Shown here piece by piece: positions 8,006-34,794 of a stretch of 64,000 bases of DNA. The position numbers and the translations under genes were made by a program. How positions within the stretch are numbered: the stretch's first letter is position 1; each line of letters starts with the position of its first letter. This DNA is from a virus. A model generated the notes under the pieces. That model was given only the letters and a program-made list of their open reading frames with translations, made no database searches and was not told where the DNA came from. The stretch covers positions 32,001 to 96,000 of the IMG/VR virus record IMGVR_UViG_3300021420_000001. The stretch is one strand, 5' to 3'.

Positions 8006-8422
8006 TTAGTAGGTCTGAGCCTGGAGCGCGGCTAGTAGCGCAGGAGATGAGCTATCGTTCTGTAAGACCAGAACCGCCTTTACCCAGTCAGGCCATTGTT
8101 CAGGGACAGCCGTGACGAGCCAGACCGTACCATCAGGGAGAACGATGACATCGCCGCCCTTGAGGGTGACTCGCTGGCCGGCGCTGATGACACCGTTGGT
8201 ATAAAGCGTACGGAGCGTGCCATTCAGATTGAGACCCTCGACCTGATGGAGGTCCTTGATCGAAAGCTCTTGCACCTGACCTTGAACTACGACCGGGGAA
8301 GCGTACTGCGGGGAACGGGAATAGTCAGCGTTGGTGATGCTTCCGGTACTAGAACGGACAATGATCGGGATTGGAGGGTTGACTGTTCCAACCATGCCCT
8401 GGACTAGTCCGTGCATGTTCAT
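8006..8422 (-). CDS. Head closure / head-tail adaptor protein
   Basis: 138 aa; MNMHGLVQGMVGTVNP...GQVQELS...KGGDVI...WLVTAVPEQWPDWVK. Confidence 0.8.
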   Translation of the reverse strand: MNMHGLVQGMVGTVNPPIPIIVRSSTGSITNADYSRSPQYASPVVVQGQVQELSIKDLHQVEGLNLNGTLRTLYTNGVISAGQRVTLKGGDVIVLPDGTVWLVTAVPEQWPDWVKAVLVLQNDSSSPALLAALQAQTY

Positions 8423-8817
8423 TGGATAGCCGAAACGATCCCAAGCCTACGACATTCTTCCAAGGCTGCGTCAGCAGGGCCATTTATCCAAGATAGTTCT
8501 TGTTGCTCCTTAGTCATTCCTTCAGGTGGATTCATATGGGCAACAGCTTCACAGATAGGGCAATATTCTGTCCCATCCGGTTTCGCGCCCATAAGGTAGA
8601 GGCCTCCCATTTTCAATGCTTGACTAGTAATCATCCAATGACAAGACATTAATGGATCATAATCCGGAGTACCGCCTTTTAATTCAGTTACTGCATCAGT
8701 GATGGCTTCTTCACCACTCTTTGCCCCCAAATGGGATAGACCACGATTCTTAATTGCAGTCCGTAATTTATCCCAATGAGGTTGACATATACGCATTCGT
8801 CTATCTTTCTGATACAT
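8419..8817 (-). CDS. Hypothetical protein
   Basis: 132 aa with CQPH and CPIC; overlaps neighbours in operon style. Confidence 0.6.
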   Translation of the reverse strand: MYQKDRRMRICQPHWDKLRTAIKNRGLSHLGAKSGEEAITDAVTELKGGTPDYDPLMSCHWMITSQALKMGGLYLMGAKPDGTEYCPICEAVAHMNPPEGMTKEQQELSWINGPADAALEECRRLGIVSAIQ

Positions 8818-8995
8818 AACCCTCAGTACAGAACGCGACCGTTACCTTTGGTGTTCGGAACCCAGCATCGATCGGGGAGTCAGGCAGGATCGTACCAATG
8901 AAACTCTTGGCATCGGTCAGACAAGTCATCCGGTCAATACGGGGTTCCGCAACGATTGTCAGGTCCGAGTAGATCAGGACCAGGATGAAGGTCAT
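8801..8995 (-). CDS. Small hypothetical protein
   Basis: 64 aa, operon orientation. Confidence 0.5.
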   Translation of the reverse strand: MTFILVLIYSDLTIVAEPRIDRMTCLTDAKSFIGTILPDSPIDAGFRTPKVTVAFCTEGYVSER

Positions 8996-9234
8996 ACCAA
9001 CTCTGGGTTCAACATTTTCTCGAAGATCGTGATACTGGTCTTACGTTCGACAATTGGACGGAAGCGCCAATTCTGCCAAGCACGTCCAGACCCATCAATA
9101 TCAATACAACCAATTCCGTTTGTCAATGAATGCACCACGTAAATACGATTTTTGACCAGAGGATAGGTGCAATGCCATTTGTTCGCAGGCAGACTAGCAT
9201 CAACACAAACAACTTTCTGTCCAACATGGAACAT
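8992..9234 (-). CDS. Small hypothetical protein (VGQKVVCV family)
   Basis: 80 aa; shares its N-terminus with 44000..44245. Confidence 0.65.
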   Translation of the reverse strand: MFHVGQKVVCVDASLPANKWHCTYPLVKNRIYVVHSLTNGIGCIDIDGSGRAWQNWRFRPIVERKTSITIFEKMLNPELV

Positions 9235-9241
9235 GAGGCAA

Positions 9242-13523: not shown

Positions 13524-13982
13524 TTATCGGGCACGCTGCGGTCCTTGATTCTGATCTTGGTATTTTCCGTTGTATGGAATTTCCGTTGGCCGATCTAACT
13601 GATGAAAGATAACTTGGGCAATTGCCCATCCAGGCTCCATTTTCAGTAGCTCAAGATTATGATATGTAATTTCAAGCGTGAGGTATCCCCGCCAACCCGG
13701 CTCCAACACGGTATTTTGAACCAAAAGTCCACGACGCGCCAAAGAAGATTTATCATGCACTACACCAACAATGTTATCTGGCAAATTGAAACGTTCAAGA
13801 GCTGATGCTAAAACAAAACAACCATTATACAATGTAATTTGTTCCGCTAAAGTTATATCTACGCCACAAGCACTAAGTCCTATAGAATTACCAAAACCAT
13901 CTTTCGACGATTCGTTAAGCGGACTTACTAAACCATTCCCACTTACACTAAACTGTCTGATTGTTTGGGCGCTAAGAACCAA
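13524..13982 (-). CDS. dcd: dCTP deaminase / trimeric dUTPase superfamily
   Basis: VHDKSSLARRGL, NTVLEPGWRGYLTLEI, IAQVIFH, YNGKYQDQ. Confidence 0.88.
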   Translation of the reverse strand: MVLSAQTIRQFSVSGNGLVSPLNESSKDGFGNSIGLSACGVDITLAEQITLYNGCFVLASALERFNLPDNIVGVVHDKSSLARRGLLVQNTVLEPGWRGYLTLEITYHNLELLKMEPGWAIAQVIFHQLDRPTEIPYNGKYQDQNQGPQRAR

Positions 13983-13983: not shown

Positions 13984-15135
13984 TTACACCAATACCTTCT
14001 TCATGATCTCGACCGCCCGACCAATCTGCTCCTCTATTGGGTACGGGGCGCAGCCGATGAAAAGTCCACAATCGTGGATACGATCCGCATTCGGCGTTTC
14101 GGCCTGAGACCGCCAGGGAGCCCCATAGGCGTGCTTGAGGAACGAGCCCCCCGTCGGTAAGCGCGAGTCAATCCCCGCGTCAGCGAGCTCCGCAACGAGT
14201 CTGGACCGCATTTCCGACGAAGAAACGGTGAGGGGGAGCCCAAACGGGCTGGGATCCATGCTCCGGCTGACCGGTAGTTTGATCGGGAGGTCTTTCGTCA
14301 AGTCTCGGAACAGGGCTAGATTACGTTGGCGGGCGACGATGAAGCCCTTGAGCTTCTTCAACTGCTCCCGCGCGATAGCGGCATGCATTTCCAAGGGACG
14401 GAGGTTGTATCCGAAGTGGGTAAAGTTGTAGCTGTCCTCGAAGGTCTTCGGTGGATCGACGTCGCGGGTCCAACCATGGGCCCGGAGAATGCGACAGAGC
14501 CTAGCGCACTCAGCATCATTTGTAAGTACGAGACCTCCTTCTACAGCACTGATCTGATGCGAATGAAAGAAGGAGAACGAATTCATTAGGCCAAGGGTGC
14601 CACAGAGATCGTTGCCGTAGTAGGCACCCAGGCTTTCGCAGTTGTCTTCGATGAAGTAGCCACCGTGGGACTCGATTGCGACCTTCAGGAAGTTCAGTGG
14701 CGCGGGGTTGCCAAGAATTGAACAACCAACCACCAACTGAGAGCCAGTAACATCAGGTAGCCCAGAACACCAAGTATTATCGCAGTCCTCAATTTTGAGG
14801 CGAAGTCCCGCGTTAACAAGCGGAGCATACGTGGTACTCCAAGCTAGGGCCGGGACGATAACCTGATCCCCACGCTTGAGGGGGTGTTCCTTTTTGGCGA
14901 AGAGTGCCGCAACCATCAACAGATTGGCAGATGATCCGCTATTGCACATAATGCCGTACTTCATCTTGTGAAAGCCGGCGAACTCCTCTTCGAACTGCTC
15001 GACCTCTGGACCCATTGTAAAGCGGTCAGAGGCGATAACCCGATGAATCGCAGTCTTCTCGCGCTCGTCCCAGGACGAAAATGCGGTCGGATACCAAAAT
15101 CCCTTATTCCAAGGCTTGACTACGACGTCGTGCAC
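13984..15135 (-). CDS. DegT/DnrJ-family PLP enzyme, ColD-like NDP-4-keto-6-deoxyhexose 3-dehydratase
   Basis: NSGSSANLL, VPALAWSTTYAP, EDNCESLG, SFFHSHQISAVEGG (His where aminotransferases have Lys), AHGWTRD, GYNLRP. Confidence 0.88.
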   Translation of the reverse strand: MHDVVVKPWNKGFWYPTAFSSWDEREKTAIHRVIASDRFTMGPEVEQFEEEFAGFHKMKYGIMCNSGSSANLLMVAALFAKKEHPLKRGDQVIVPALAWSTTYAPLVNAGLRLKIEDCDNTWCSGLPDVTGSQLVVGCSILGNPAPLNFLKVAIESHGGYFIEDNCESLGAYYGNDLCGTLGLMNSFSFFHSHQISAVEGGLVLTNDAECARLCRILRAHGWTRDVDPPKTFEDSYNFTHFGYNLRPLEMHAAIAREQLKKLKGFIVARQRNLALFRDLTKDLPIKLPVSRSMDPSPFGLPLTVSSSEMRSRLVAELADAGIDSRLPTGGSFLKHAYGAPWRSQAETPNADRIHDCGLFIGCAPYPIEEQIGRAVEIMKKVLV

Positions 15136-15517: not shown

Positions 15518-16081
15518 TCAACCATACTGAGAAAGTTGCTCGATGCACAACGTAGAGCCCTCTCGATTTAACGCATCTCGATACAAAGGCATGACATCCT
15601 GCGCATGGTCGATATTGACGACCACTATGGTCTGTAACATAGCGCGGAATGCTGCAGAAAAGTCTCCCAAATGCTGGTGCCCAGGATCGAGAGGTCTGTC
15701 CGTTGCGATTGCGGTACGGATGATGACTTTGGGACGATAGGCTGAGTAGCGTGGGATGGCATCTAGGTGAAGTACAAGTTGACTCATTGCCAATAGCAAA
15801 AAGTTCACGCGCGGATAGATACAAATGGGCAGGTCACCATTCAGGGAGGCCCCAATTGCAGCACCAAGTTGCATATCCTCAGCGACGGGCCACTCGATTC
15901 GCCTATGCATTGGAACATTACGCAAAGCGTTGAACATCGCAGTACCCGGAAATTGTACCGCCTGACCCAGAAAGACAGAACGCGGATGCTGAGACAGCAT
16001 CTCCATTGCTTTACAGAGTTCAGAGAAGTATGCCGTCTCCGGCTGCTGCGTAGGGGCGACGCGGACGCTTGGCACTGACAA
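15518..16081 (-). CDS. TPP-dependent enzyme, E1-beta/transketolase pyrimidine-binding domain (short)
   Basis: SVFLGQAV, EWPVAEDMQLGAAIGASLNG, IYPRVNFLLLAMSQLV, PGHQH. Confidence 0.87.
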   Translation of the reverse strand: MSVPSVRVAPTQQPETAYFSELCKAMEMLSQHPRSVFLGQAVQFPGTAMFNALRNVPMHRRIEWPVAEDMQLGAAIGASLNGDLPICIYPRVNFLLLAMSQLVLHLDAIPRYSAYRPKVIIRTAIATDRPLDPGHQHLGDFSAAFRAMLQTIVVVNIDHAQDVMPLYRDALNREGSTLCIEQLSQYG

Positions 16082-16090
16082 GGGTTGATC

Positions 16091-16681
16091 CTAGAAGTTG
16101 ACGCGGACGCCAGCCCCACTATGGGGCCAAGGCAATTTGTAGTGGAACGCAAGCACACCAGGAGCGTCAGCCTTGAACGGGTCGCCCCAAGTTTCCTGGG
16201 TTGGGGTACACACCGACTTGCCATTGTCCTCGATCACAAAGTCAAGGGGTAAATTGTGTCCTTGCGAATAGACAACGCACTCAGTGAACATCCCAGTAGC
16301 GGAAGTCATGTCCCCAACGAAGCACCAGACCCGATTCTTGCCGCCCGCTCGTTTGATGGACCAGGCAATCCCAAGAGCAATCGGCAAAATGCCTCCGACA
16401 ATTGCGGAGGATATTATGCGACGTTCAGGATAACAAAGCGTAATAGACTTTCCCGCGAGGATGTCTCGCTTAAGTATTTCAGGCGGGACGCCGTGCAGTA
16501 AACATTTGTAGTGACTTCTCCAGGAGCAACAAACCCAATCGTCCGGGTAGACCTGTTTGAAGATTTTGATGAGTTGTTCTTCATTCCCCCCATCCAAATG
16601 TATTGGGGCTCTAATATGCCCCGCATTGAATTCGGCAGCGATGTCTTTTTCGAACGCGATGAGCTCTTCAGCGGAAAGCAT
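16091..16681 (-). CDS. TPP-dependent enzyme, E1-alpha-like (short)
   Basis: IRAPIHLDGGNE, WRSHY, SSAIVGG, FVGDM...VIEDN (variant TPP motif), PHSGAG. Confidence 0.88.
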   Translation of the reverse strand: MLSAEELIAFEKDIAAEFNAGHIRAPIHLDGGNEEQLIKIFKQVYPDDWVCCSWRSHYKCLLHGVPPEILKRDILAGKSITLCYPERRIISSAIVGGILPIALGIAWSIKRAGGKNRVWCFVGDMTSATGMFTECVVYSQGHNLPLDFVIEDNGKSVCTPTQETWGDPFKADAPGVLAFHYKLPWPHSGAGVRVNF

Positions 16682-16844: not shown

Positions 16845-17225
16845 TCAATTCAACTTATCGAATTTGACGACCGTCGGCTTCGGCTTATTCTCAGGATCAG
16901 ACTTGAAAAGCCAAGTCGTATAAGCATCCAGGTCTTCGCGGGTCAGAAAGAATTCCCATTGACCATCAAAACTTCCGTCCCCGTTAATCTCCGTAAGCAT
17001 ATCCGCAACGTCAAAAGCCATCAGTGCGGGCGGAAGGTTCTCAGCCTTGAGTTCGTCACTCCGATCGATCTTGATCAAAAGTATACCGGGTTCGAGGAAC
17101 TCTACGATCTCACCCCACTGGCTGTACTCGTTACCGCAATGAAAAACAAACTTGCCGACGAAGCTGTTGTTCATGAAAATACATTCCAATTGCCAAAGTC
17201 CTCGACAAGTTCTGCTGCAAAACAA
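16845..17225 (-). CDS. Hypothetical protein
   Basis: Acidic ORF in operon orientation; true start probably MNNSF. Confidence 0.55.
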   Translation of the reverse strand: MFCSRTCRGLWQLECIFMNNSFVGKFVFHCGNEYSQWGEIVEFLEPGILLIKIDRSDELKAENLPPALMAFDVADMLTEINGDGSFDGQWEFFLTREDLDAYTTWLFKSDPENKPKPTVVKFDKLN

Positions 17226-24255: not shown

Positions 24256-24524
24256 TGAGAATTTGCCGCCGTCCAGGCTTTCATATTCTCCATTCCTTGA
24301 GGGCTAATAAGCAGTTGACCCCGCGTTGATCCGTCCGGATAAGACGCTCGGGTAAGCCAACGAACCTCTTCCGTACCAACGATACCTAAGAACTTTTCCA
24401 TAGCGTCAGGTGTCATTCGGGGAAGGTCTCGGTAGACCCAACCGTCAGCCCGTAAAGTTTCGCCAGGGAACGGTTCACCTTCAGGTAGAGGCCAACTATC
24501 CATCCAATCTTTCAGTGCACTCAT
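24252..24524 (-). CDS. Hypothetical protein
   Basis: 90 aa; ATGA overlaps on both sides. Confidence 0.6.
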   Translation of the reverse strand: MSALKDWMDSWPLPEGEPFPGETLRADGWVYRDLPRMTPDAMEKFLGIVGTEEVRWLTRASYPDGSTRGQLLISPQGMENMKAWTAANSQ

Positions 24525-26598: not shown

Positions 26599-27219
26599 TC
26601 AACTCAGTAACTCCCTTAGAGCACCTGAGTCACGCATACCACGAGCTAGGTCACCGTGCGAGAATCCAGGCACAACAGTTGGCTTGACGCCAATCCGCTC
26701 GATCATCTGCCGGTCCAGTCGCGTATCAGGGCCGTCACTGATGAACGCTTTCACAACTGGGATTGGACCGTCCTTGAAGTAGGGAAGAAGTTCCACGTCC
26801 GGGTTGGCGGGGTCCACGATGAAGGGATGGTCAACCGGGTCGAACCCATTAGGCTGGCGCGAGGTCAGAGCTGATATTGCAATGACTTCGTCCGCATGCC
26901 CCAATTGTCCGTATAGTAGTGCTGCATAAGCTCCAGAAGACACGCCGATAGTAATGACGTACTTGTCATAATGGTCCCAAAAATTGGCGATATAGTCTCC
27001 AACCTCCCCTTGGTCACCAATTCCCTGAACACCGTAATGATGATAGCGCTGGGTTGAGTCCCGCATCAGGACGTAAGAGCAATCCAATTGCTCCAGCGTC
27101 TTTCCGAATTGATAGACATTCTGTGGTCCGCCGGCAAAGGCGATGACCAATCGATCAGAAGGCTTCAGATGTTCTTCGTAATCCACCAAGCGCAACTCGA
27201 CCCGTTTACCATTGACCAT
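26599..27219 (-). CDS. Alpha/beta hydrolase-fold protein (esterase/acyltransferase-like)
   Basis: LVIAFAG oxyanion strand, GVSSG nucleophile elbow followed by AYAALLYG, Asp (RLD), His (FSHG). Confidence 0.75.
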   Translation of the reverse strand: MVNGKRVELRLVDYEEHLKPSDRLVIAFAGGPQNVYQFGKTLEQLDCSYVLMRDSTQRYHHYGVQGIGDQGEVGDYIANFWDHYDKYVITIGVSSGAYAALLYGQLGHADEVIAISALTSRQPNGFDPVDHPFIVDPANPDVELLPYFKDGPIPVVKAFISDGPDTRLDRQMIERIGVKPTVVPGFSHGDLARGMRDSGALRELLS

Positions 27220-27234: not shown

Positions 27235-30171
27235 TCAGTTCAATTGCGCGCAAGGCAGGTGGGTAGCAAGGTTGAGTTCCTGATTGTCCGAAGTCAGAAC
27301 CGTACACTGCAACAGGTACGTCACGTTGGCCACGCAACCCGCGAACTGCTGCAGGACAGCCCGACCGAAGACCCCCGCAGGAACCCCAGGGAAGGCCGGA
27401 GGGACGGGTCCGATCTGGGAGGCCCCAAAGACTATCCCCTGTGGGTTAGGGTCCTGGGTGAGGCTTACACCCGCGTTGGCGACCGTTATCCCGACAATCG
27501 AGGCGATCGTGACGCCAGACCCGAGCCAAGGGTCGAAATTGAACGTGACAGTTACCTTCTCCACGGTGGGATCGATAACCGAGAGATCATTACCATAAGG
27601 CATGCCCATAACCCTTGGCGTTGTCACAAAGGTGCGGGCGGAGCCCTGTTTGGATGGCAGCGTAGAATTCGGCGCGTTCGGATTACAGACAAAGCGTGGG
27701 TCTGTAATGAGCAGCGCTGTCGGGAATAGGATTGCGCCATTGCGCCAGTAGAAGCCTTGCCACGCGGGAATGTCGGCCGGAACGCTACTACCGTAATTCC
27801 AATTCTGTATTGGCGGAGTTACGACCGTTGGCCGGTTCGTGACGTTGGCGTTGACTTGACCCAACCACTGCCAGAATGGTTCATCAAATGGACGGGTCTG
27901 GAATTTCCACAGTGGTGCAGAAGGCTGACCACCAGCTGTTACAATTGGCGTAAGTAGGGTATTACTCTTTGGCCCGAACTGCCAACCACTGGAATCATCT
28001 TGCCCAAACTTCCAAGGAATGTAGATGAAAGGTTCGTTGACGACAGGAACAAGGTTGATGTTCCTTGGCTTGGAACCTGACTGCCAACTAGAAGAGTCAT
28101 CGAAACCGTAACACCACGGCGAATACGTAAACGGCAGCGTTGGTACAAACGGAGTTAGATTTATGTTACGAGGTTTAGACCCAGACTGCCAATAGCTTGA
28201 ATCGTCCTGACCGAACTGCCACGGCGTATAAATGAAAGGCTCTACAACAACGACGGGAATAAGATTAACGTTCTTAGCCTTAGTCTTCAGTTGCCAAACG
28301 TCATCATCAAAAGGACGCGTTGAATAGAAAGCCGGACGTAGAACGGTCTTGGGTCCGGGAGGTAACGTTATCAGTGCAGCGGCTGTTCCCGTCCAATTCC
28401 AATTACTCGAATCATCAAAGCCGTAGCGCCAGGGGGAATAAGTGAAAGGTAAGGTCGTAACTGATGCAACCAGATTTATGTTCTTGGCGACAGGAAGCCT
28501 TTGCCAAACGGGCATGTCGTCTGGAGGACTATAATACCAAGTAGAAATTGATGGGAATTGAACACTCGCGGCTGCGTTCAGATTGTACGGGGCTTTGAAC
28601 TGCCAAGTGCTTGAATCGTCAACGCCAAATTTCCAAGGGGGGCTAACGGTGGGGGTATTCCCCGATGCAATTAAATTAGCATTACGCTCTATTGCCGGTT
28701 GCCAGATAAAATCATCTGAAGGACGTGAAGCGTAAAAGGGCGGACGTAGAACAGTTTTATTTGTAGGCGCATTCAACAGCGTGTAGAACGTCGCTGAACC
28801 TACCGCATTGGATTGCTGCCAATTAGGCTGATCATAATTGGCAAATGAATATGCCCAATTCTGCTTGAATGGATTCGTAGCCGCAACTGTAAGAAGGCTG
28901 CGGTTATTCGTAGAGGGCTGTCTCCACGCAGAAGAATCATCTAGGAGGTAATCCCAACGCTTTGTCAGAACTTGACCAGGAGCCCCAAAGAATTTAGTCC
29001 CGGTAAGGATCTCAAGAATGCCGGAATTGTAATTCTCGGGAGTGCCTTGCCAAGCAGATTCGGCGATATCGTAATCAAACTTCCACAACCAAGGGATGTT
29101 AACAAACGCCTCAGAGACTTGAAGCGGGCTACGGCCTTGTGAACTAAATTGCCACCCCGAAGAGTCATCGTAATTGTATAGCGGTCCCCACCTTTTAGTT
29201 GGAGGTTGTCCACCAACATCCAATAGCACAAGAGTATTTGCATTACGATTGTCGGCCGTCGGAGCCCAAATGAAATCGTCCGATGGTCGTGGCGCAAAGA
29301 AAGCTGGACGCAGGACCGTCTTAGGTAAAATACTTGCAGCTAAGCTACGGTTGTATGGTGCAGAAGCGAATGACCAAAGGGAAGAATCATCAATACCATT
29401 CAAGAAAGATCGAGCGGGTTTCTTGTTGACAAAAGCAGAGACATAATTGATGACGATAAGACCGTTAGCACCTACGCCCGCAGTACCTCCAGTAGTAGCC
29501 CCGCCACCGCCGGCGCCGTAATTACCGCCAGCACCGGCTGTGCCCGTTGTACAGCCACCGCCACCGCCACCAGACCCATGAGAAGCATCATACTCCGTGC
29601 CGGGATTTCCTGCAGTACCACTCGTTGTCCCACCGGCGCCGCCTGTGCCTCCTGAAGTACCGTCTCCCTGACCACCAATACCACCGTTACCCACAGTACC
29701 ATTGGCGCCAACATTGCCAGCTCCGTTAGGGCCACCTGCACCGCCACCGCCTCCAGCATCGGTCGAGACTGATCCGCCGTTACCGCCATTATTTGCAGAG
29801 GTACCTACGCTAGCAGCGGCAGTCCCACCGAGTCCGCCAGTTCCCCCACCTCCAGTGACAGCAGCAGCGCCCGCAGCTGCGCAACTGACTGTATTACCAT
29901 TCGCAACAGCATTAGCTAATGAAGTAGCATTAAACCAAGTGTCGTTACCCTTTTGTCCTGTTGCTCCACCAGCACCAATCCCAACGTTGAGAACGGCGCG
30001 TGGTGTAACAGTGAGAATACTCCGTGCCCAGGCGCCACCTCCGCCACCGCCACCTGCGCCGGCTCCGCCAGCACCACCAGAACCAGAGCCAAGGCAATCA
30101 ACAACAACCTGAACGCAATCGTCAGGAACCGTCCAGGTCGTCGTACCGTTCAGTAGGAAAATCTGAGGCAT
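27235..30171 (-). CDS. Large putative virion appendage protein: Gly-rich domain, ~16 Trp/Asp repeats, C-terminal fibre-adaptor-like domain
   Basis: N-term TWTVP..VDCLGSGSGG...GANGLIVINY polyglycine domain. Central PWxFGxDDSSxWQ repeats. C-term DPTVEKVTVTFNFDPWLGSGVTI...YLLQCTVLTSDNQEL. Confidence 0.75.
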   Translation of the reverse strand: MPQIFLLNGTTTWTVPDDCVQVVVDCLGSGSGGAGGAGAGGGGGGGAWARSILTVTPRAVLNVGIGAGGATGQKGNDTWFNATSLANAVANGNTVSCAAAGAAAVTGGGGTGGLGGTAAASVGTSANNGGNGGSVSTDAGGGGGAGGPNGAGNVGANGTVGNGGIGGQGDGTSGGTGGAGGTTSGTAGNPGTEYDASHGSGGGGGGCTTGTAGAGGNYGAGGGGATTGGTAGVGANGLIVINYVSAFVNKKPARSFLNGIDDSSLWSFASAPYNRSLAASILPKTVLRPAFFAPRPSDDFIWAPTADNRNANTLVLLDVGGQPPTKRWGPLYNYDDSSGWQFSSQGRSPLQVSEAFVNIPWLWKFDYDIAESAWQGTPENYNSGILEILTGTKFFGAPGQVLTKRWDYLLDDSSAWRQPSTNNRSLLTVAATNPFKQNWAYSFANYDQPNWQQSNAVGSATFYTLLNAPTNKTVLRPPFYASRPSDDFIWQPAIERNANLIASGNTPTVSPPWKFGVDDSSTWQFKAPYNLNAAASVQFPSISTWYYSPPDDMPVWQRLPVAKNINLVASVTTLPFTYSPWRYGFDDSSNWNWTGTAAALITLPPGPKTVLRPAFYSTRPFDDDVWQLKTKAKNVNLIPVVVVEPFIYTPWQFGQDDSSYWQSGSKPRNINLTPFVPTLPFTYSPWCYGFDDSSSWQSGSKPRNINLVPVVNEPFIYIPWKFGQDDSSGWQFGPKSNTLLTPIVTAGGQPSAPLWKFQTRPFDEPFWQWLGQVNANVTNRPTVVTPPIQNWNYGSSVPADIPAWQGFYWRNGAILFPTALLITDPRFVCNPNAPNSTLPSKQGSARTFVTTPRVMGMPYGNDLSVIDPTVEKVTVTFNFDPWLGSGVTIASIVGITVANAGVSLTQDPNPQGIVFGASQIGPVPPAFPGVPAGVFGRAVLQQFAGCVANVTYLLQCTVLTSDNQELNLATHLPCAQLN
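27720..29440 (-). repeat. Array of ~16 degenerate ~30-45 aa protein repeats
   Basis: Cores in order: IDDSSLW, SDDFIW, YDDSSGW, YDIAESAW, LDDSSAW, YDQPNW, SDDFIW, VDDSSTW, PDDMPVW, FDDSSNW, FDDDVW, QDDSSYW, FDDSSSW, QDDSSGW, FDEPFW, ADIPAW. Confidence 0.88.
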
Positions 30172-30197
30172 AGATGCTCACGCCCCTAAATTTTCCA

Positions 30198-30440
30198 TTA
30201 ACGAAGAAGCATGTTCGGGAAACCAAGCGAGGTCTTTGGTGGAACTTCACCTACGACTTCTTCAGGAGGTACTGCCGACCCCACAACGCCTCGATAGCAA
30301 CCATCACAAATAGGTGGGTCGAACGGAGTCGTCATTGGTATCTGTAGGATACGGCGAAGTGCCTCGACCTCTGCAAGCGATCGACGTTCTCGCTCGAAAG
30401 GTTCGAGGCACCAACCACAAAGCAGTGTCTGCTTAGCCAT
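30198..30440 (-). CDS. Small Zn-finger-like protein
   Basis: CGWC...CDGC. Confidence 0.6.
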   Translation of the reverse strand: MAKQTLLCGWCLEPFERERRSLAEVEALRRILQIPMTTPFDPPICDGCYRGVVGSAVPPEEVVGEVPPKTSLGFPNMLLR

Positions 30441-30467
30441 TTGTACGTCCCAGAAAAGTATACTACG

Positions 30468-30977
30468 TCAGAGCGACTCGTACACCATATGACTTCCGAC
30501 CAATCCGGGAGTACCGCCTGTGAAGGCCGAGAGTGAGACCTCCCCAAGCGAGGCCGTATTGCCCAAGACGCTGAAGCACTCCTCTAGGCGGTTGGCGCGC
30601 CAGAAGTAGACGCCACCAAAAGCATTGAGCGAGCAGTTCGCCAAGTGCAATGTAGACGATCGCTGAGGTGGTGTCGCATTGATATTACCCGTCAGGGCCG
30701 GAGCGGCAAGCGCGGCAGTGGCCGGATCAATCGCGGCGTCGGTCACACCCGTACCGTTCGAGTTGGTAACACCGACCGTGGAGTCCCTGGAGAGTAGCAT
30801 GATCGTCGGGGACGAGGACGAAGGGGCCTGGCCCGCAATCGAGATTTCCCATACCTTGTTCAGCTGGGTAGCCGTACCACCCTGTAGGATGAACGGATAG
30901 GTGCCACTCGTCATACCAGTCGTGTCGGCAAAGGCAGTCGGGGTCAGGGTCGTATTGGAAACAATGCGTCTAGCCAT
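30468..30977 (-). CDS. Beta-rich Ser/Thr-rich putative structural (fibre subunit) protein
   Basis: 169 aa; strong SD (AAGAGGAG); C/G-ending codons like the capsid genes. Confidence 0.65.
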   Translation of the reverse strand: MARRIVSNTTLTPTAFADTTGMTSGTYPFILQGGTATQLNKVWEISIAGQAPSSSSPTIMLLSRDSTVGVTNSNGTGVTDAAIDPATAALAAPALTGNINATPPQRSSTLHLANCSLNAFGGVYFWRANRLEECFSVLGNTASLGEVSLSAFTGGTPGLVGSHMVYESL

Positions 30978-31044
30978 AGTTCACTCCTCTTGGCTTTTCT
31001 GCCGGCCGTCATGGCTAGGGCAGGTTGAATTCCGGGGTTTGACG

Positions 31045-31401
31045 TTATCGAAGAAGACGCGGGGGGATAGAAGGGGGTTGCCCCTTGGCAACAGCATCCA
31101 CAAATTCATCGATGACCTGCTTCATGGGCTTGAGCTCTACGCCAAGCTTGCGCAGCAAATCGCAATTGTCGCAGATGTATCGGTCCAACTTACGACAATA
31201 AGCTCGCTCACGCTCCCGTAGTGGATTGCGTACAATAAGACTCTCACAATACGGACAATTATACGTCGCTGCCTGAAGACGCTTACCGGCTTCGACTGGA
31301 ATTGTGCCATGACCGACCTTAGCCGCAAGCTCTGGGGAAACGCCAGGGCTCTCGCGGTGGTCGATCTCAAGGTAACCTTCGAGCTCGCGTTTGGAGAACA
31401 T
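31045..31401 (-). CDS. Cys-rich Zn-binding hypothetical protein
   Basis: CPYC...CRKL...ICDNC. Confidence 0.65.
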   Translation of the reverse strand: MFSKRELEGYLEIDHRESPGVSPELAAKVGHGTIPVEAGKRLQAATYNCPYCESLIVRNPLRERERAYCRKLDRYICDNCDLLRKLGVELKPMKQVIDEFVDAVAKGQPPSIPPRLLR

Positions 31402-31404
31402 TGC

Positions 31405-32220
31405 CTACATCATGATCATGGGTTGAGCACCAAAAAGGGTGTCCGGAGAGATTCCTGAGCTCGTAACCCCTGAGAAAAAACTCTGTTGTGAAATAGGAGG
31501 ATACCAAAAAGACCAAGGATCGGATGCTGCTTGTATTAATTCTGGGAGTAGGTTAAATCTACCAACAGAAAACATTGCAGCACTATTATTACCGATTCCT
31601 ACAAGGGTGTCTCTATTGCCGAATACGTAAGTACCGTTACTAGGGGAGGCAACGCTTGCCTGCGTTCCGGTAGCGGTTTGGATTTGCCCGGTCGCCAGAT
31701 TTCTGACCGCCGCGTTCCACGTAGTAGTACCCTGGTGAAACGAAATGGCAAAGAAGTAAGGTAATCCAACAGTGGGAACTATTCCGGTCGTTACCGATGT
31801 ATCTCCACCAAGTGTGAGGGCAAATGCCGTTACACCGCTAGTAAACAGTCCTGGTCCGATGCCGGTACCGCTTCCAGAAGAATTACAAGCGTAGAAAGCC
31901 GTACCTGAAACAGTAGATGGGCGAACAATTGCGGCCACTGTATAAATCGTCTCAGTTGTTGCCGGCCGCGAAGACCACGTAAAAGCGTCCGTCGACGCAG
32001 CAAATTTAATTGCTGGCCCAAGCGCGCCATCGATCAGAGCAGAAGGACCGCCGACAACTATACCAGGCTTTGCCCCATTAACTAAATCTACAGCTCCACC
32101 ACTTGACGTCGCCACAAAAGAAAACCGGGTCTTAACTCCAGCTAAGACGTGGGTAGGGTCAAACCCGGATAGACGTCCTGCCGGGTAAGTAAGCGGATTA
32201 TATGGACGAAGAAGACGCAT
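31405..32220 (-). CDS. LamG/concanavalin A-like jelly-roll protein (putative virion lectin)
   Basis: AVDLVNG...GPAIKF...YTVAAIVRP...YFFAISF...LPELIQAASDPW pattern. Confidence 0.65.
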   Translation of the reverse strand: MRLLRPYNPLTYPAGRLSGFDPTHVLAGVKTRFSFVATSSGGAVDLVNGAKPGIVVGGPSALIDGALGPAIKFAASTDAFTWSSRPATTETIYTVAAIVRPSTVSGTAFYACNSSGSGTGIGPGLFTSGVTAFALTLGGDTSVTTGIVPTVGLPYFFAISFHQGTTTWNAAVRNLATGQIQTATGTQASVASPSNGTYVFGNRDTLVGIGNNSAAMFSVGRFNLLPELIQAASDPWSFWYPPISQQSFFSGVTSSGISPDTLFGAQPMIMM

Positions 32221-32718
32221 TTAAGCGTTCAGATTTTGGTTGTAGGTACGATACTTCACAGTCTGAGTACCAGCCGAAAGTGCCGTTGATGGTAGTAAAT
32301 TGTTGACAAGCGCGAATCGGAAGGAGCCAGGAGGTAGAACCAACCCCTGTACAAAGTACACAAGTGATGTTAGAGTAGCTACGCGAAAGTTTACCGGTAC
32401 TGGGGGAAGCGCAGGAGTGCCTACCGTTTGCGTACCGGGTGTCGCATAAAGTCCATCACCATAAGTAGTACCATCATCAAGCAAAGGATAAAGATACAAA
32501 GCAACACCGGCACCAGCTGTCAATGTCGTAGAAGCAATGGCAAGTCGGATGGAAATATCCATATACTGATCAAGTGATGTTCCATTGGTAATGTCACCCA
32601 CCGACGAAAGAACCCCGCTACCGTTTGGTAGGCTGACAAGATCGGATGAATTGATCAAGGTTGCAAAGCCAAGACCGGGGCCAAGCCGTCCGCCAATCCA
32701 TGCTGTGTTATTCGCCAT
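32221..32718 (-). CDS. Beta-sandwich putative structural protein
   Basis: 165 aa; ITNGTSLDQYMDISIRL, VALYLYPLLDDGTTYGD, LPPGSFRFALVNN. Confidence 0.6.
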   Translation of the reverse strand: MANNTAWIGGRLGPGLGFATLINSSDLVSLPNGSGVLSSVGDITNGTSLDQYMDISIRLAIASTTLTAGAGVALYLYPLLDDGTTYGDGLYATPGTQTVGTPALPPVPVNFRVATLTSLVYFVQGLVLPPGSFRFALVNNLLPSTALSAGTQTVKYRTYNQNLNA

Positions 32719-32730
32719 ATGTTAACCCTC

Positions 32731-34794
32731 TTAGCTGCTTCCGTTTGCAATCGCAAACGCCGGAAAGGATTGATAAGGAGAACTGTAAATATCTCCAGGA
32801 TACATGCTCCAGGGGAGGTTTCCAGCCAGGGTGAAGTACGCACCCATAGAACCCGCTGGAAGACCGGGTGTAGTCTTAAATTGAGATATCAAATCTTGGA
32901 TAATCTGGTTAAAGGTAGAACTGTACTTGTACCCAGTCAACATGACATCGATCTTGCCGCCAGAGCCGCCGTAGGTTGTGCTAATACCGATGCTCGTACA
33001 TTGCGCCGTTGTAGGCGCTTGCGCTTCATAACCACCCTCGTATAGCACAAATGGCAAGCCGTAGGTAGCACCCTGCGAAACCCACCCAGGGTAAAATATT
33101 CCTGAATGCGTAGCCAAAGTCTCTCCTCCAGCCACGCTATTCTTTTTTCCGTTACGGACATCTGCGTTTATCCAAGCAAATGCAGCATCATTATTGCCAT
33201 TAGCGTAATTATCCGCTGCTCCAGTCAACCCAGCAAGATCTCCCGCTCCATAAGTTCCACCGTACGCCGGACCAGCGCATAAGATCGCACCAGCAAAGTA
33301 ATTAGCGAACGAGAAAACATCCGCGTAATCGATGGGACGACCATTACCCCCCGCACCCACTGTCTGATTGTAACTTACGCCGATGATGCTGGCATAGTTT
33401 GGGAACGTAGCAGTGTTTAAATCGGTCCCTTGCCAGCGGTAGATGTCGGTGGCTACAGGATCATTGACTTCCCCCTGCGCCATAACTCTCTTGAAGTTTT
33501 TCTGACCGCCGTAAGCCGTAGTTATCAAGGCCATCGTCAGTCTAAATCGAAGCCCATAAGTGGAAAAAATATATCTGGCATTACTGCTCGGGAAACCCAA
33601 CGCAGTGCCTACTGCACCGGCCCAGGATGATTGCTCGAATCCACTGGAAATGTTCCAAATCTCATTTGAGTATTCATAGTAACAATTCAGATCTTTCCGT
33701 AGATTGTTTTTTATGTAGGTCGCATCAGCCGTGATGTAGGCATCAGTTGCATGGACCGGAATGTGATACCACATATCCATCCCAAGCTCGTTGCACATTT
33801 CCACCATTGCGAAAACAGGAAGACATTTGATACCTAAAGCACTTCCACTACCCAACCAGGCCCCCAAAATACTATCATATACCAAAGTCCAACAACTACC
33901 TGCCGAAATGGCGCCAGACCCCAAATTCTGGGCACTCATATTGAAAACCGGAACCCCTACTGTTCCATTTAGGGTTAGAGTTACATTGCCAGTGTTTGCT
34001 GCATTAAACTGAAGTTGTATCGTCTGTCCTTGCGTGAGTGTAGCTCCACTCACTGTTACTGAATATGTATTCCCGGAGTTTGTTGTTGAGCCCCCCCAAA
34101 CTGTCGGCTCCCAACGGTTGGTGTAGCAAATTGCCGTAGATAGGCAATTCATTCCAACACCAGCTAAATTGTTGTTACTGTCGCAGTTATCAATCGTCGG
34201 CATACGGACGATCTTTGGATTCAACCTTTTCATAATGCTAAGAAAATCGGGATTGAACATGAGACCGGCATTCAAAGCCGGTCCATCAGCTTTTCGATAA
34301 AGTCGCAATTGCGTCAGATTGATAGTAGCTCCAGAAATAAATCCAGCCTCACAACCACTAAGCGTGCTCGGAGGAACGTTAAAGGTAAACTCTACAGATC
34401 CATCAGTACCAAATACTCCCAGATCAAATTGGGTAGTATACACAAAAGAATTACCAGCATAGACAGTAACTCCCGTACCAAGGCTAATTACCATCCCGTG
34501 GTTGCTAGAATTACCAAGCACGCCTTTCCAATCAAGAACCCAATGTCCGGTATATGATGAAATCGGCTGGATCAGGAAATTTATACTCGAAGATAAAGTG
34601 CCAGTCGGAAAGTTATTGTTGTCCAACATTCCAGGAAAAGCAGTGGTACCATTGTTAGTAAAAGTCCCCATCAAGAACATGTTCATGTAAGGGTACGGAT
34701 AAGGCATGTAGTCAATATTCAAGACATTCGAGCCTGCGGGTAATGCCGCAGAACTAAAGAAATTTCTAACCGCTCCCCCACCGCCAAGCAGCAC
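32731..34794 (-). CDS. Glycoside hydrolase-like (TIM-barrel, clan A-like) protein with inserted fibre-type domain
   Basis: FNPDFL..LNPKIVRM, MVEMCNELGMDMWYHIP, YYEYSNEIWN (NE acid/base-like), VLYEGG (nucleophile-like). Insert NTYSVT...FNAANTGNVTLTLNG...GAISAG..LVYD. Confidence 0.65.
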   Translation of the reverse strand: MLLGGGGAVRNFFSSAALPAGSNVLNIDYMPYPYPYMNMFLMGTFTNNGTTAFPGMLDNNNFPTGTLSSSINFLIQPISSYTGHWVLDWKGVLGNSSNHGMVISLGTGVTVYAGNSFVYTTQFDLGVFGTDGSVEFTFNVPPSTLSGCEAGFISGATINLTQLRLYRKADGPALNAGLMFNPDFLSIMKRLNPKIVRMPTIDNCDSNNNLAGVGMNCLSTAICYTNRWEPTVWGGSTTNSGNTYSVTVSGATLTQGQTIQLQFNAANTGNVTLTLNGTVGVPVFNMSAQNLGSGAISAGSCWTLVYDSILGAWLGSGSALGIKCLPVFAMVEMCNELGMDMWYHIPVHATDAYITADATYIKNNLRKDLNCYYEYSNEIWNISSGFEQSSWAGAVGTALGFPSSNARYIFSTYGLRFRLTMALITTAYGGQKNFKRVMAQGEVNDPVATDIYRWQGTDLNTATFPNYASIIGVSYNQTVGAGGNGRPIDYADVFSFANYFAGAILCAGPAYGGTYGAGDLAGLTGAADNYANGNNDAAFAWINADVRNGKKNSVAGGETLATHSGIFYPGWVSQGATYGLPFVLYEGGYEAQAPTTAQCTSIGISTTYGGSGGKIDVMLTGYKYSSTFNQIIQDLISQFKTTPGLPAGSMGAYFTLAGNLPWSMYPGDIYSSPYQSFPAFAIANGSS

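What the first reader, a model, noticed from the sequence alone, without database searches (positions are those of the whole stretch)
8419..34794. Candidate new system: a phage-encoded rare-sugar virion glycosylation and appendage island that splits the neck module
Seen: the neck genes DUF4054-like (34795), gp10-like (18863-19354) and head closure (8006-8422) are normally adjacent. Here they are separated by ~15.4 kb and ~10.4 kb of co-oriented, mostly translationally coupled genes. These include 4 GTs, 3 methyltransferases, a 2OG-Fe dioxygenase, an alpha/beta hydrolase, sugar-nucleotide enzymes, a B12 radical SAM and putative fibre/lectin proteins. Known: some mycobacteriophages glycosylate their virions using GTs encoded among structural genes. 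Inference: this phage goes further, making its own unusual monosaccharide and a methylated/hydroxylated glycan during late expression, to shield the virion or mimic or engage host surface polysaccharide.
Basis: partly seen in the sequence, partly recalled or inferred. Interest (0 to 1): 0.93.

Follow-up and report, generated by a model that had tools for sequence, protein, structure and literature searches.

The report
Phage neck genes split by sugar-building islands
A complete 111-kb soil phage has about 26 kb of sugar-modifying enzymes, sugar transferases and fibre-like proteins inserted between its head-to-tail joining genes; the enzyme core recurs in many other phages and most likely makes an undescribed branched deoxy-sugar, but what that sugar is attached to is untested.

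Summary
In relatives of 40-46 kb the DUF4054 adaptor, the Neck1 gene and the phrog_1912 gene are adjacent. Here they are 15.4 kb and 10.4 kb apart. All inserted genes are on the same strand and tightly packed.

**Island B (8423-18862):**
- a ColD-type 3-dehydratase, with His in place of the catalytic Lys
- an SDR close to PDB 6vo6
- a minimal split ThDP E1 alpha/beta pair
- a B12 radical SAM enzyme interrupted by an intein
- a CgeB-like glycosyltransferase
- a conserved helical protein of unknown function

**Island A (19355-34794):**
- two more CgeB-like glycosyltransferases and one GT-A
- three methyltransferases
- a weak PhyH-like protein and an alpha/beta-hydrolase-like protein
- a 978-aa Gly-rich protein with DDSS repeats
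- a 687-aa glycosidase-like protein

**New here:**
- The enzyme core recurs next to CgeB-like glycosyltransferases in at least 20 of 36 viral loci.
- In a clade of large phages it is interleaved with the neck genes.
- Elsewhere it lies just upstream of tail genes.

The complete genome has no nucleotidyltransferase, so it must start from a host NDP-sugar. It also has no ThyA, ThyX, TET or C5-methylase, no priming transferase and no flippase-like protein.

Virion-protein glycosylation is the best reading (about 0.45) but is unproven. This scan had already noted the same cassette on other DNA.

The parts
34795..35274 (-). DUF4054 head-tail adaptor-like protein (upstream anchor)
   Evidence: PF13262 E 3.9e-10; phrog_302 E 4e-21
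32731..34794 (-). 687-aa protein: N-terminal beta-sandwich domains followed by a clan GH-A-like TIM-barrel glycosidase domain
   Evidence: N377-E378 and E586 invariant in 10 homologues. AF2 model pLDDT 75. Foldseek hits are almost all GH10/79/51/26/2 enzymes, probability about 1 but low TM.
27235..32718 (-). Appendage-like block. Ala/Gly/Ser/Thr/Val-rich proteins of 165, 271 and 169 aa; two small Cys-rich proteins of 118 and 80 aa; and a 978-aa protein. The 978-aa protein has a Gly-rich N-terminal domain, eight W-x-[FY]-x-x-DDSS-x-W repeats and a C-terminal domain.
   Evidence: PF21722 Gly_rich_2 E 8e-10; repeats listed; no Pfam or PHROG hit for the others. Absent from relatives L016-L021.
26599..27219 (-). 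206-aa alpha/beta-hydrolase-like protein
   Evidence: Invariant G92-x-S94-x-G96, D162 and H188 in 3 homologues; weak RBBP9 serine hydrolase hit, E 0.13
25210..26109 (-). CgeB-like GT-B glycosyltransferase (299 aa)
   Evidence: PF13524 E 5.7e-11; 58 homologues; 36 viral loci
24521..25102 (-). Probable class I SAM methyltransferase (193 aa)
   Evidence: Methyltransf_24 at 22 bits, below cut-off, plus three other methyltransferase families
23359..24255 (-). CgeB-like GT-B glycosyltransferase (298 aa), paralogue of the 299-aa one
   Evidence: PF13524 E 2e-8; 51% identical to the 299-aa glycosyltransferase
22462..23133 (-). GT-A fold (GT2-like) glycosyltransferase (223 aa)
   Evidence: The strongest PDB matches of the family profile are all GT-A enzymes (TarP-like, DPMS, SpsA, ppGalNAcT), best E 1e-5. 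15 of 22 homologues match PF00535.
21902..22462 (-). Methyltransf_24 (TylF/CmcI-type) methyltransferase (186 aa)
   Evidence: PF13578 E 1.5e-8
21120..21905 (-). 261-aa PhyH-like candidate 2OG-Fe(II) oxygenase (weak)
   Evidence: PF05721 at 16.5 bits, E 4e-4 within this genome, below cut-off. H129-x-D131 invariant. No PDB profile hit.
19927..20667 (-). Methyltransf_24 methyltransferase (246 aa)
   Evidence: PF13578 E 2.8e-14
18863..19354 (-). Neck1/tail-completion protein (middle anchor)
   Evidence: phrog_222 E 2e-35; 147 GenBank phage records
17725..18681 (-). CgeB-like GT-B glycosyltransferase (318 aa); lies directly after Neck1 in six related phages
   Evidence: Atlas feature score 0.97-0.98 and TM 0.7-0.8 to PF13524 clusters; adjacency
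17171..17749 (-). p192: conserved helical-bundle protein of unknown function and a frequent, non-universal member of the cassette (9 of 36 viral loci)
   Evidence: 53-65% identical copies in 9 loci. AF2 gives a 5-helix model, pLDDT 79. No PDB, Pfam or DUF6165 match.
15518..16681 (-). Minimal split ThDP enzyme: E1-alpha-like PP domain (196 aa) and E1-beta-like PYR domain (187 aa)
   Evidence: PF00676 E 1e-9 and PF02779 E 1e-5; TIGR03182 E 2e-18; GDM-x27-DNG ThDP motif
13984..15135 (-). ColD-type PMP-dependent sugar 3-dehydratase
   Evidence: PDB 2gms ColD E 1.2e-75. His aligns with ColD His188, the residue changed in the 3b8x mutant. RfbH is the best NCBIfam hit.
13524..13982 (-). dCTP deaminase-like protein (accessory; absent from G001)
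   Evidence: TIGR02274 at 98.7 bits, above the 92.8 cut-off; no match in L002
12272..13204 (-). SDR sugar-nucleotide oxidoreductase
   Evidence: PDB 6vo6 E 4.7e-105; PF01370
11796..12308 (-). Free-standing HNH homing endonuclease (mobile insertion)
   Evidence: PF13392 E 9.5e-17; absent at this site in L002
9242..11674 (-). B12-binding radical SAM enzyme interrupted by an HNH-bearing intein at 10049-11020
   Evidence: PF02310, PF14890 and PF04055. The intein splits the CX3CX2C motif. Homologues outside this phage and G001 lack residues 219-542.
8006..8422 (-). phrog_1912 'head protein' (downstream anchor)
   Evidence: phrog_1912 E 1.6e-34

Best explanation
Two gene blocks sit inside the late neck operon of a complete myovirus with direct terminal repeats.

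**The enzyme core tailors a host sugar.** It takes a host nucleotide-sugar, most likely GDP-linked (mannose or heptose), and modifies it.
1. An SDR related to PDB 6vo6 creates or handles the 4-keto group.
2. A ColD-type PMP enzyme removes the 3-hydroxyl.
3. A minimal ThDP E1 alpha/beta pair adds a two-carbon branch to the 4-keto carbon, the same chemical logic as yersiniose.
4. A B12 radical SAM enzyme then methylates or rearranges the product. It is active only after its intein splices out and restores the iron-sulfur motif.

**The sugar is then transferred.** Three soluble CgeB-like GT-B transferases and one GT-A assemble a short glycan. TylF-type methyltransferases and perhaps an oxygenase and an esterase-like hydrolase trim it.

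**The likely acceptor is the virion.** These genes appear to be co-transcribed with the head, neck and tail genes, and the phage has no means of its own to prime or export a lipid-linked glycan. The most likely acceptors are therefore phage structural proteins made in the cytoplasm. Candidates are the neck region or the island's own proteins: the 978-aa DDSS-repeat protein and the small Ala/Gly/Ser/Thr/Val-rich proteins. The 687-aa glycosidase-like protein is a separate virion-associated protein that binds or cuts glycans.

**Shown:** gene identities, synteny, recurrence in other phages and the absences listed.
**Inferred:** reaction order, the GDP substrate, co-transcription and the acceptor.
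For: **Enzyme identities**
- ColD-type dehydratase: E 1e-75, with His at the catalytic position.
- SDR: E 5e-105 to 6vo6. From memory, and not verified with a tool, 6vo6 is C. jejuni Cj1427.
- PMC10680097 shows that Cj1427 plus a ColD-like C3-dehydratase make GDP-3-deoxy-4-keto-heptose.
- The E1 alpha/beta pair has a ThDP motif.
- B12 radical SAM.
- Four glycosyltransferases.

**Dependence on the host**
- No NTP_transferase anywhere in the complete genome.

**Recurrence of the cassette**
- Radical SAM + E1 alpha + E1 beta + ColD-like genes lie beside 1-4 CgeB-like glycosyltransferases in at least 20 of 36 IMG/VR loci.
- They are interleaved with DUF4054, Neck1, phrog_1912 and the sheath gene in L016-L021 and G001, and Neck1 is followed directly by GT318 in six phages.
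- In five distant loci a phrog_376 tail protein lies 1.6-2.8 kb downstream of the glycosyltransferase.
- Neighbouring ORFs are mostly tail or head proteins.

**Other acceptors look less likely**
- No ThyA, ThyX, TET/JBP or C5 DNA methylase.
- No WbaP- or WecA-type priming transferase.
- No ORF in the genome with more than 4 hydrophobic segments, and no real island gene with 2 or more.

**Operon structure**
- Tight same-strand packing.
- Promoter-like and terminator-like sites are not above the shuffled expectation.

**Conservation**
- The sugar genes are 64-79% identical to those of G001, against 53% for Neck1.
Against: - No glycoprotein evidence of any kind exists, and the acceptor is pure inference.
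- No RNA data: no RNA holder was listed.
- The enzymes are of the kind used for bacterial capsule and O-antigen sugars, and peripheral glycosyltransferases without membrane segments also act on lipid-linked acceptors. The phage could therefore feed host machinery.
- The position in the neck operon could simply be a permissive insertion hot spot. The cassette sits at different places and in different orders among relatives.
- The appendage block is not shared with any relative, so it is not an obligate partner of the enzymes.
- The oxygenase and hydrolase assignments are weak.
- That 6vo6 is Cj1427 rests on my memory.
- A dCTP deaminase gene lies inside island B here, and one lies near glycosyltransferases in L033. 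This keeps a nucleotide or DNA link open.
Confidence: 0.45

Rival explanations
1. The islands remodel the host surface. Their product is handed to host lipid-linked intermediates or host glycosyltransferases. It changes the LPS, capsule or EPS of the infected cell late in infection, to block superinfection or to stop progeny sticking to debris.
For: - The closest characterised enzymes belong to surface-polysaccharide pathways: ColD for O-antigen colitose, and the 6vo6 and C. jejuni capsule heptose enzymes.
- The literature reads glycosyltransferase islands in the structural regions of marine myophages this way (PMC7029224).
- The 687-aa glycosidase-like protein shows that the phage deals with polysaccharide.
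Against: - No priming transferase, no flippase- or polymerase-like multi-span protein and no membrane-anchored glycosyltransferase in the complete genome.
- The genes sit in the late operon of a phage with no integrase seen near them, which leaves little time for surface turnover.
- They keep a conserved adjacency to Neck1 and to tail genes.
Confidence: 0.2
2. The neck region is an insertion hot spot holding unrelated cargo. That cargo is a widespread mobile sugar cassette, extra glycosyltransferases and methyltransferases, fibre genes, homing endonucleases and a dCTP deaminase. These accumulated because insertions are tolerated there, and they share no joint function tied to the virion.
For: - Order and content differ between relatives, and L016 even has phrog_1912 before Neck1.
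- The appendage block, HNH gene, intein, dCTP deaminase and several small ORFs are specific to this phage.
- The cassette also occurs in loci with helicase or exonuclease neighbours.
Against: - The enzyme core always travels with CgeB-like glycosyltransferases.
- The Neck1-GT318 adjacency persists although Neck1 identity has fallen to 34-53%.
- The sugar genes are better conserved than the neck protein.
- Neighbours are mostly structural genes.
Confidence: 0.15
3. The glycan is put on the phage DNA as a hypermodification that protects against restriction.
For: - Phage glycosyltransferases with dedicated sugar-nucleotide pathways are known for DNA (arabinosyl-5hoC, PMC13326640).
- A dCTP deaminase lies in island B.
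- Methyltransferases plus an oxygenase plus glycosyltransferases superficially recall the C5-methylase/TET/glycosyltransferase clusters.
Against: - No ThyA or ThyX homologue, no TET/JBP and no C5 DNA methylase in the complete genome.
- The methyltransferases are of the TylF/CmcI sugar type.
- The oxygenase matches PhyH weakly and does not match TET.
- The dCTP deaminase is missing from the closest relative.
- The location is among neck and tail genes, not among replication genes.
Confidence: 0.1

Closest known systems
Mycobacteriophage virion glycosylation (Freeman et al. 2023, as cited in PMC12619734 and PMC11256854; the paper itself was not held)
   Same: Phage-encoded glycosyltransferases are proposed here, and shown there, to decorate capsid or tail proteins made in the cytoplasm.
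   Different: - Those phages carry about two glycosyltransferases and use host sugars. Here there are four glycosyltransferases plus a five-enzyme sugar-tailoring cassette, methyltransferases and fibre-like genes.
- This phage is a myovirus of a probably Gram-negative-type lineage.
- No C-terminal acceptor extension is seen on the capsid protein (alignment reaches residue 365).
- No experimental evidence exists here.
Hypervariable structural-region islands of T4-like pelagimyophages and cyanomyophages (PMC7029224; PMC12801897)
   Same: Glycosyltransferases, deoxy-sugar enzymes, radical SAM and 2OG oxygenase genes are embedded among tail or structural genes of large myophages, and their function is unresolved.
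   Different: - Different phage lineage (Kunmingvirus/vB_AsaM-56-like structural module).
- The island splits the neck genes rather than the tail-fibre block.
- Different glycosyltransferase families (CgeB-like, not GT8).
- A defined, recurrent ColD/ThDP/B12-radical SAM core.
Colitose and C. jejuni 3-deoxy and 3,6-dideoxy-heptose pathways (ColD, PDB 2gms; Cj1427 plus the HS:5 C3-dehydratase, PMC10680097)
   Same: - A ColD-type His-for-Lys PMP dehydratase, E 1e-75.
- An SDR that is nearly a full-length match to PDB 6vo6.
- The published pair makes a GDP-3-deoxy-4-keto sugar.
   Different: - No 4,6-dehydratase, C5-epimerase or obvious C4-reductase was identified here.
- Instead a ThDP pair and a B12 radical SAM enzyme follow, so the end product cannot be colitose or a known heptose.
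Branched-chain sugar biosynthesis with ThDP enzymes (yersiniose YerE; E1 alpha/beta-type AviB1/AviB2 in avilamycin). This comparison is from my own knowledge.
   Same: A ThDP enzyme next to a 3-deoxygenase implies addition of a two-carbon branch to a 3-deoxy-4-keto sugar.
   Different: - The subunits are minimal (196 and 187 aa; the beta subunit lacks the C-terminal domain).
- Homology to AviB1/B2 or YerE was not tested.
- The likely nucleotide is GDP, not CDP or dTDP.
B. subtilis CgeB/SpsA spore-crust glycosylation (the link to CgeB is from the Pfam PF13524 description and my own knowledge)
   Same: - CgeB-like GT-B enzymes, and a GT-A whose profile also hits SpsA.
- They act on a proteinaceous shell assembled inside a mother-cell cytoplasm, a close physical analogue of a virion.
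   Different: Sequence relation is at family level only. The acceptor is unknown in both cases.

Membership tests
ColD/RfbH-type PMP-dependent sugar 3-dehydratases (DegT fold) | His replaces the Schiff-base Lys of DegT aminotransferases | tested here: met
   The query His aligns with the ColD residue that is mutated in PDB 3b8x (wild type SHH, mutant SNH).
ColD/RfbH-type PMP-dependent sugar 3-dehydratases (DegT fold) | Full-length similarity to ColD greater than to aminotransferases | tested here: met
   258 bits to ColD, against 88 bits or less to aminotransferases.
ColD/RfbH-type PMP-dependent sugar 3-dehydratases (DegT fold) | C3-deoxygenation of an NDP-4-keto sugar | not testable with these tools
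   Needs an enzyme assay.
Class B (B12-binding) radical SAM enzymes | N-terminal B12-binding domain plus a radical SAM core with CX3CX2C | tested here: met
   PF02310 and PF04055. The motif reads C-P-F-K-C-S-F-C only after removal of intein residues 219-542.
E1 alpha/beta-type ThDP enzymes | PP domain with a GD[GM]-x(25-30)-N motif and a separate PYR-domain subunit | tested here: met
   GDM-x27-DNG at residue 123; PF00676 and PF02779 on adjacent genes.
E1 alpha/beta-type sugar-branching enzymes (AviB1/AviB2-like) | Specific homology to characterised sugar-branching pairs | not tested
   No reference sequence was available from a tool. An earlier scan note (e1-866082) names them as closest known.
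CgeB-like glycosyltransferases (PF13524) | Match to PF13524 above the gathering score | tested here: met
   The 299-aa protein scores 43.0 bits and the 298-aa protein 34.6 bits, cut-off 25. The 318-aa protein is assigned only by atlas features and structure.
GT-A (GT2-like) glycosyltransferases | Family profile matches GT-A structures or Pfam GT2 | tested here: met
   PDB profile hits are GT-A only, best E 1e-5. 15 of 22 homologues match PF00535. The protein itself gives no Pfam hit and no match in the own-genome search.
PhyH-type 2OG-Fe(II) oxygenases | Match above the Pfam cut-off, and an HxD...H triad | tested here: inconclusive
   16.5 bits against a cut-off of 22. HxD is invariant. No PDB profile hit.
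Clan GH-A glycoside hydrolases | TIM barrel with an Asn-Glu acid/base on strand 4 and a Glu nucleophile on strand 7 | tested here: inconclusive
   N377-E378 and E586 are invariant. Foldseek hits are almost all GH-A families with probability about 1, but TM is only 0.2-0.5. Strand positions were not checked.
Phage DNA glycosylation systems (hmC, hmU, 5hoC or TET-based) | A ThyA or ThyX homologue, or a C5-methylase plus TET/JBP, to create the hydroxyl handle on the base | tested here: not met
   PF00303, PF02511, PF12851 and PF00145 all absent from the complete genome, with positive controls.
Wzx/Wzy-type or ABC-type surface polysaccharide loci | A priming phosphoglycosyl transferase and a multi-span flippase or polymerase | tested here: not met
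   PF02397 and PF00953 absent. No ORF has more than 4 hydrophobic segments. Wzx and Wzy families were not searched by HMM.
Phage virion glycosylation (mycobacteriophage type) | Glycosyltransferase genes linked to structural genes | tested here: met
Phage virion glycosylation (mycobacteriophage type) | Glycan covalently attached to capsid or tail proteins | not testable with these tools
   Needs purified virions.

The most novel reading that the evidence does not exclude
A conserved, phage-specific glycosylation system is genetically coupled to the neck and tail genes. It converts a host GDP-sugar into a so far undescribed 3-deoxy, carbon-branched (and perhaps C-methylated) sugar. It then attaches methylated glycans containing that sugar to virion proteins, for example the DDSS-repeat fibre or neck-proximal proteins. 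This would make virion glycosylation with a virus-specified monosaccharide a widespread trait of environmental tailed phages.
Probability: 0.3. Interest if true: 0.85.

Novelty: new variant of a known kind. Interest (0 to 1): 0.7.

Why it matters
If the product decorates the virion, this would extend phage virion glycosylation in three ways:
- from a few actinobacteriophages to a broad set of environmental phages;
- from host sugars to a sugar specified by the virus;
- to an arrangement where the enzymes sit between the neck genes.

That bears on phage immunogenicity, stability, adsorption and receptor mimicry.

Independently of the acceptor, the core of a ColD-type dehydratase, a minimal ThDP pair and a B12 radical SAM enzyme is a compact, recurrent and uncharacterised route to a branched deoxy-sugar. 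It can be tested directly in vitro with GDP-mannose or GDP-heptose.

The intein that splits the iron-sulfur motif of the radical SAM enzyme offers a natural on/off control worth testing.

Tried and rejected
**Searches that found nothing useful**
- Megablast of 25 kb against GenBank phages: no match.
- tblastn of the 299-aa glycosyltransferase against GenBank phages: no match.
- Single-sequence PDB searches for the 318-, 223- and 687-aa proteins: nothing.
- Single-protein scans of viral contigs for the 687-aa protein and the 299-aa glycosyltransferase: nothing.
- The metagenome scan with the 261-aa protein returned only the contig already known as G001.
- Rfam and ARAGORN found nothing in the window.
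- Promoter-like and terminator-like sites are not above the shuffled expectation.
- The literature search for this enzyme combination in phages found nothing relevant.

**Tools and papers not available**
I therefore could not inspect the 43.8-kb contig that carries an 85% relative of the 299-aa glycosyltransferase and a 43% relative of the 978-aa protein.
- Freeman 2023 and the Cj1427 structure paper are not held, so I could not verify with a tool that 6vo6 is Cj1427.

**p192**

**Weak assignments**
- PDB profile searches for the PhyH-like and hydrolase-like proteins were negative or weak.

**Expression**
- No RNA holder was listed.

**Idea rejected**
- A phosphonate pathway (small split ThDP decarboxylase plus B12 radical SAM methyltransferase): no PEP mutase-like protein was seen, and the ThDP pair matches E1/transketolase-type families, not the sulfopyruvate or phosphonopyruvate decarboxylase type.

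Full report
**Setting**

The window is bases 32001-96000 of a single 111,480-bp viral contig. The contig has direct terminal repeats and CheckV rates it 100% complete. Nearly all genes in 1-50000 are on the minus strand.

PHROG and Pfam searches identify these genes, all on the minus strand:

| Gene | Coordinates | Evidence |
|---|---|---|
| XM1-gp53-like minor capsid protein | 37251-38390 | |
| Major capsid protein | 36070-37167 | phrog_264 |
| phrog_2085 protein | 35285-35743 | |
| DUF4054 / phrog_302 | 34795-35274 | |
| Neck1 / tail completion | 18863-19354 | phrog_222 |
| phrog_1912 'head protein' | 8006-8422 | |
| 235-aa phrog_1876 protein | 6996-7703 | |
| Tail sheath | 5209-6969 | |

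- The capsid and Neck1 proteins are 35-48% identical to those of 40-46-kb myoviruses (Aeromonas 4_D05 and vB_AsaM-56, Pseudomonas Amjad_SA, Klebsiella phages).
- In Aeromonas phage 4_D05 the order is capsid, four small genes, the DUF4054-like 'virion structural protein', one small gene, Neck1, 'head protein', two small genes, sheath. Neck1 and the head protein overlap.
- Four IMG/VR relatives (L003-L006) have the same compact order.
- The capsid-to-Neck1 distance is 0.9-1.5 kb in six GenBank relatives and 16.7 kb here.
- The genes in both inserts are co-oriented with overlaps or short spacers. The two apparent gaps of 450-490 bp are filled with small same-strand ORFs.
- Promoter-like and terminator-like sites are no more frequent than in shuffled sequence.
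- The assembly is sound. An independent contig from another sample (G001, 28.8 kb) has the same Neck1-glycosyltransferase junction, and the same radical SAM-phrog_1912 end of island B without this phage's two small ORFs.
- A 107.6-kb contig from another assembler, on the probable source run, spans 16001-36000 without a difference.

**Island B (8423-18862), in order of transcription**

- A 318-aa protein that the protein atlas places with CgeB-like GT-B glycosyltransferases (score 0.97-0.98, TM 0.7-0.8).
- A 192-aa protein (p192) whose conserved 135-residue core folds as a helical bundle. It has no match in PDB, Pfam or DUF6165.
- A minimal ThDP enzyme split into a 196-aa E1-alpha-like subunit with a GDM-x27-DNG motif and a 187-aa E1-beta-like PYR subunit.
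- A DegT-fold protein that is really a ColD-type PMP-dependent 3-dehydratase. It scores E 1.2e-75 to ColD (2gms) and has His at the position of ColD His188.
- A dCTP deaminase-like protein above its NCBIfam cut-off.
- An SDR with E 4.7e-105 to PDB 6vo6. From memory, and not verified with a tool, 6vo6 is C. jejuni Cj1427, the GDP-heptose C4-dehydrogenase.
- A free-standing HNH endonuclease.
- An 810-aa B12-binding radical SAM enzyme.

PMC10680097 shows that Cj1427 plus a ColD-like C3-dehydratase make GDP-3-deoxy-4-keto-heptose. That fits the phage pair. The ThDP pair would then add a two-carbon unit to the 4-keto carbon (yersiniose logic, from my own knowledge), and the radical SAM enzyme would elaborate the product.

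No nucleotidyltransferase exists in the genome. The phage therefore tailors a host NDP-sugar rather than making one from scratch.

**Island A (19355-34794)**

The upstream 7.5 kb encodes these proteins:
- A 687-aa protein. N377-E378 and E586 are invariant in its ten homologues. Its AlphaFold model (pLDDT 75) retrieves almost only clan GH-A glycosidases, with high probability but low TM.
- Three Ala/Gly/Ser/Thr/Val-rich proteins of 165, 271 and 169 aa with no family.
- Two small Cys-rich proteins.
- A 978-aa protein with a Gly-rich domain (PF21722), eight W-x-[FY]-x-x-DDSS-x-W repeats and a C-terminal domain.

The downstream 7.9 kb encodes these proteins:
- An alpha/beta-hydrolase-like protein with invariant GxSxG, Asp and His, and only a weak RBBP9 hit.
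- Two paralogous CgeB-like glycosyltransferases (PF13524).
- A GT-A glycosyltransferase, identified only by profile.
- Three methyltransferases, two of them clearly of the TylF/CmcI type.
- A PhyH-like protein supported only below threshold.

The oxygenase and the hydrolase remain tentative.

**What the comparisons add**

*Closest relative.* G001 carries island B at the same place. Its sugar genes are 64-79% identical to those here, against 53% for Neck1. It lacks the HNH gene, the dCTP deaminase and several small ORFs.

*Recurrence of the cassette.* An alignment of the 299-aa glycosyltransferase family (58 homologues) retrieved 36 IMG/VR loci.
- At least 20 of them carry radical SAM, E1 alpha, E1 beta and the ColD-like gene next to one to four CgeB-like glycosyltransferases.
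- The 6vo6-like SDR often accompanies them, and p192 is present in nine loci.
- Twelve further 'nucleotide-sugar epimerase' genes lie among the neighbours.
- Apart from this phage and G001, none of the radical SAM genes has the intein.

*A clade with split neck genes.* In L016-L021 (fragments of contigs of 29-118 kb, four of them 75-118 kb) the cassette and glycosyltransferases are interleaved with DUF4054, Neck1, phrog_1912 and the sheath gene. Positions and orders differ. The pair Neck1 then GT318 recurs in this phage, G001, L017, L018, L019 and L021, and a 299-type glycosyltransferase usually lies just upstream of Neck1.

*Distant loci.* In five of them a phrog_376 tail protein lies 1.6-2.8 kb downstream of the glycosyltransferase on the same strand. 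Among 91 larger neighbouring ORFs, hits to tail, tail-fibre, capsid and tape-measure families outnumber DNA-metabolism hits.

*The appendage block.* It is absent from all these relatives. The glycosidase-like domain of the 687-aa protein is nevertheless common in viral contigs (108 loci). Near its full-length relatives lie portal, capsid, protease, head-closure, adaptor and sheath genes.

*Bacterial genomes.* p192 occurs in only seven genomes out of one per species, all of them MAGs. One has the full cassette. Several, in small Patescibacteria-type genomes, have p192 alone.

**Which acceptor?**

- **DNA.** The complete genome has no ThyA or ThyX homologue, no TET/JBP and no C5 DNA methylase. 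These are the known ways to create a hydroxyl handle on a base (PMC13326640, and my own knowledge of TET-based clusters). DNA is not excluded but is disfavoured.
- **Host surface.** There is no WbaP- or WecA-type priming transferase. No ORF has more than four hydrophobic segments, and none of the real island genes has two. The phage cannot build or export a lipid-linked glycan alone, although it could feed the host's machinery.
- **Virion proteins.** This reading fits three things: the soluble enzymes, the position inside the late operon, and the repeated association with neck and tail genes in several lineages. It also fits the analogy with CgeB/SpsA glycosylation of the spore crust. It has no direct evidence.

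I put it at about 0.45. The rivals are host-surface remodelling (0.2), an insertion hot spot with unrelated cargo (0.15) and DNA modification (0.1).

**Comparison with what is known**

- Glycosyltransferase and sugar islands in the structural regions of large marine myophages have been described and are usually read as host-surface modification (PMC7029224; PMC12801897).
- Virion glycosylation has been shown for mycobacteriophages (cited in PMC12619734).
- New here are the exact arrangement (neck genes split), the defined and recurrent ColD/ThDP/B12-radical SAM core, and the set of accompanying CgeB-like glycosyltransferases.
- No paper in the library describes this enzyme combination in phages.
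- Earlier notes of this scan found the same cassette on other DNA (e1-3543197, e1-866082, e1-6063604). The cassette is therefore not first seen here. This window adds the neck-coupled context in a complete genome and the exclusion tests.

**Verdict**

- It is a new variant of a known kind.
- Interest is 0.7.

Noticed in passing
window 10049-11020 (-), inside the radical SAM gene 9242-11674: A 324-residue intein is inserted exactly within the CX3CX2C iron-sulfur motif (…NCPFK | C-LAGDT … VLVKN | CSFC…), so the enzyme can work only after splicing. It carries an HNH-type endonuclease motif, and its penultimate residue is Lys rather than the usual His. It is present in G001 and absent from the roughly 25 other viral homologues.
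   Followed up: partly
window 11796-12308 (-): A free-standing HNH homing endonuclease lies between the SDR and the radical SAM gene. It is absent at this site in G001. HNH genes also sit beside the cassette in L025, L041, L050 and L051.
   Followed up: partly
window 13524-13982 (-): A dCTP deaminase-like gene (above the NCBIfam cut-off) is embedded in the sugar cassette. It is missing from G001, and a homologue lies near glycosyltransferases in L033. Its role here is unexplained.
   Followed up: partly
window 23307-23348: A perfect tandem duplication of a 21-nt unit (TTCAGCTATATCTCGCGCGAG x2) lies in the 225-bp spacer between the 298-aa glycosyltransferase and the GT-A gene. No explanation.
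   Followed up: no
window 31045-31401, 30198-30440, 15120-15377, 8419-8817 (-): Four small Cys-rich, zinc-ribbon-like ORFs are scattered through the islands. The 118-aa one and the 169-aa protein have adjacent homologues next to a glycosidase-like gene in L104.
   Followed up: partly
L053 and L055 (about 0.8-Mb MAG chromosomes), L052, L057: p192 homologues (54-57% identical) occur without the rest of the cassette in small-genome, Patescibacteria-type MAGs. In L053 and L054 a Methyltransf_24 gene lies nearby.
   Followed up: no
window 5209-6969 and 6996-7703 (-): The tail sheath is about 90 residues longer than in relatives. It shares an inserted domain (phrog_21413 / tail-fibre-like) with the neighbouring 235-aa protein. 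This may be a surface decoration domain.
   Followed up: no
L059-L138: The TIM-barrel domain of the 687-aa protein (residues about 302-490) is common in viral contigs (108 loci). In its full-length relatives it lies among head and neck genes rather than tail-fibre genes.
   Followed up: partly
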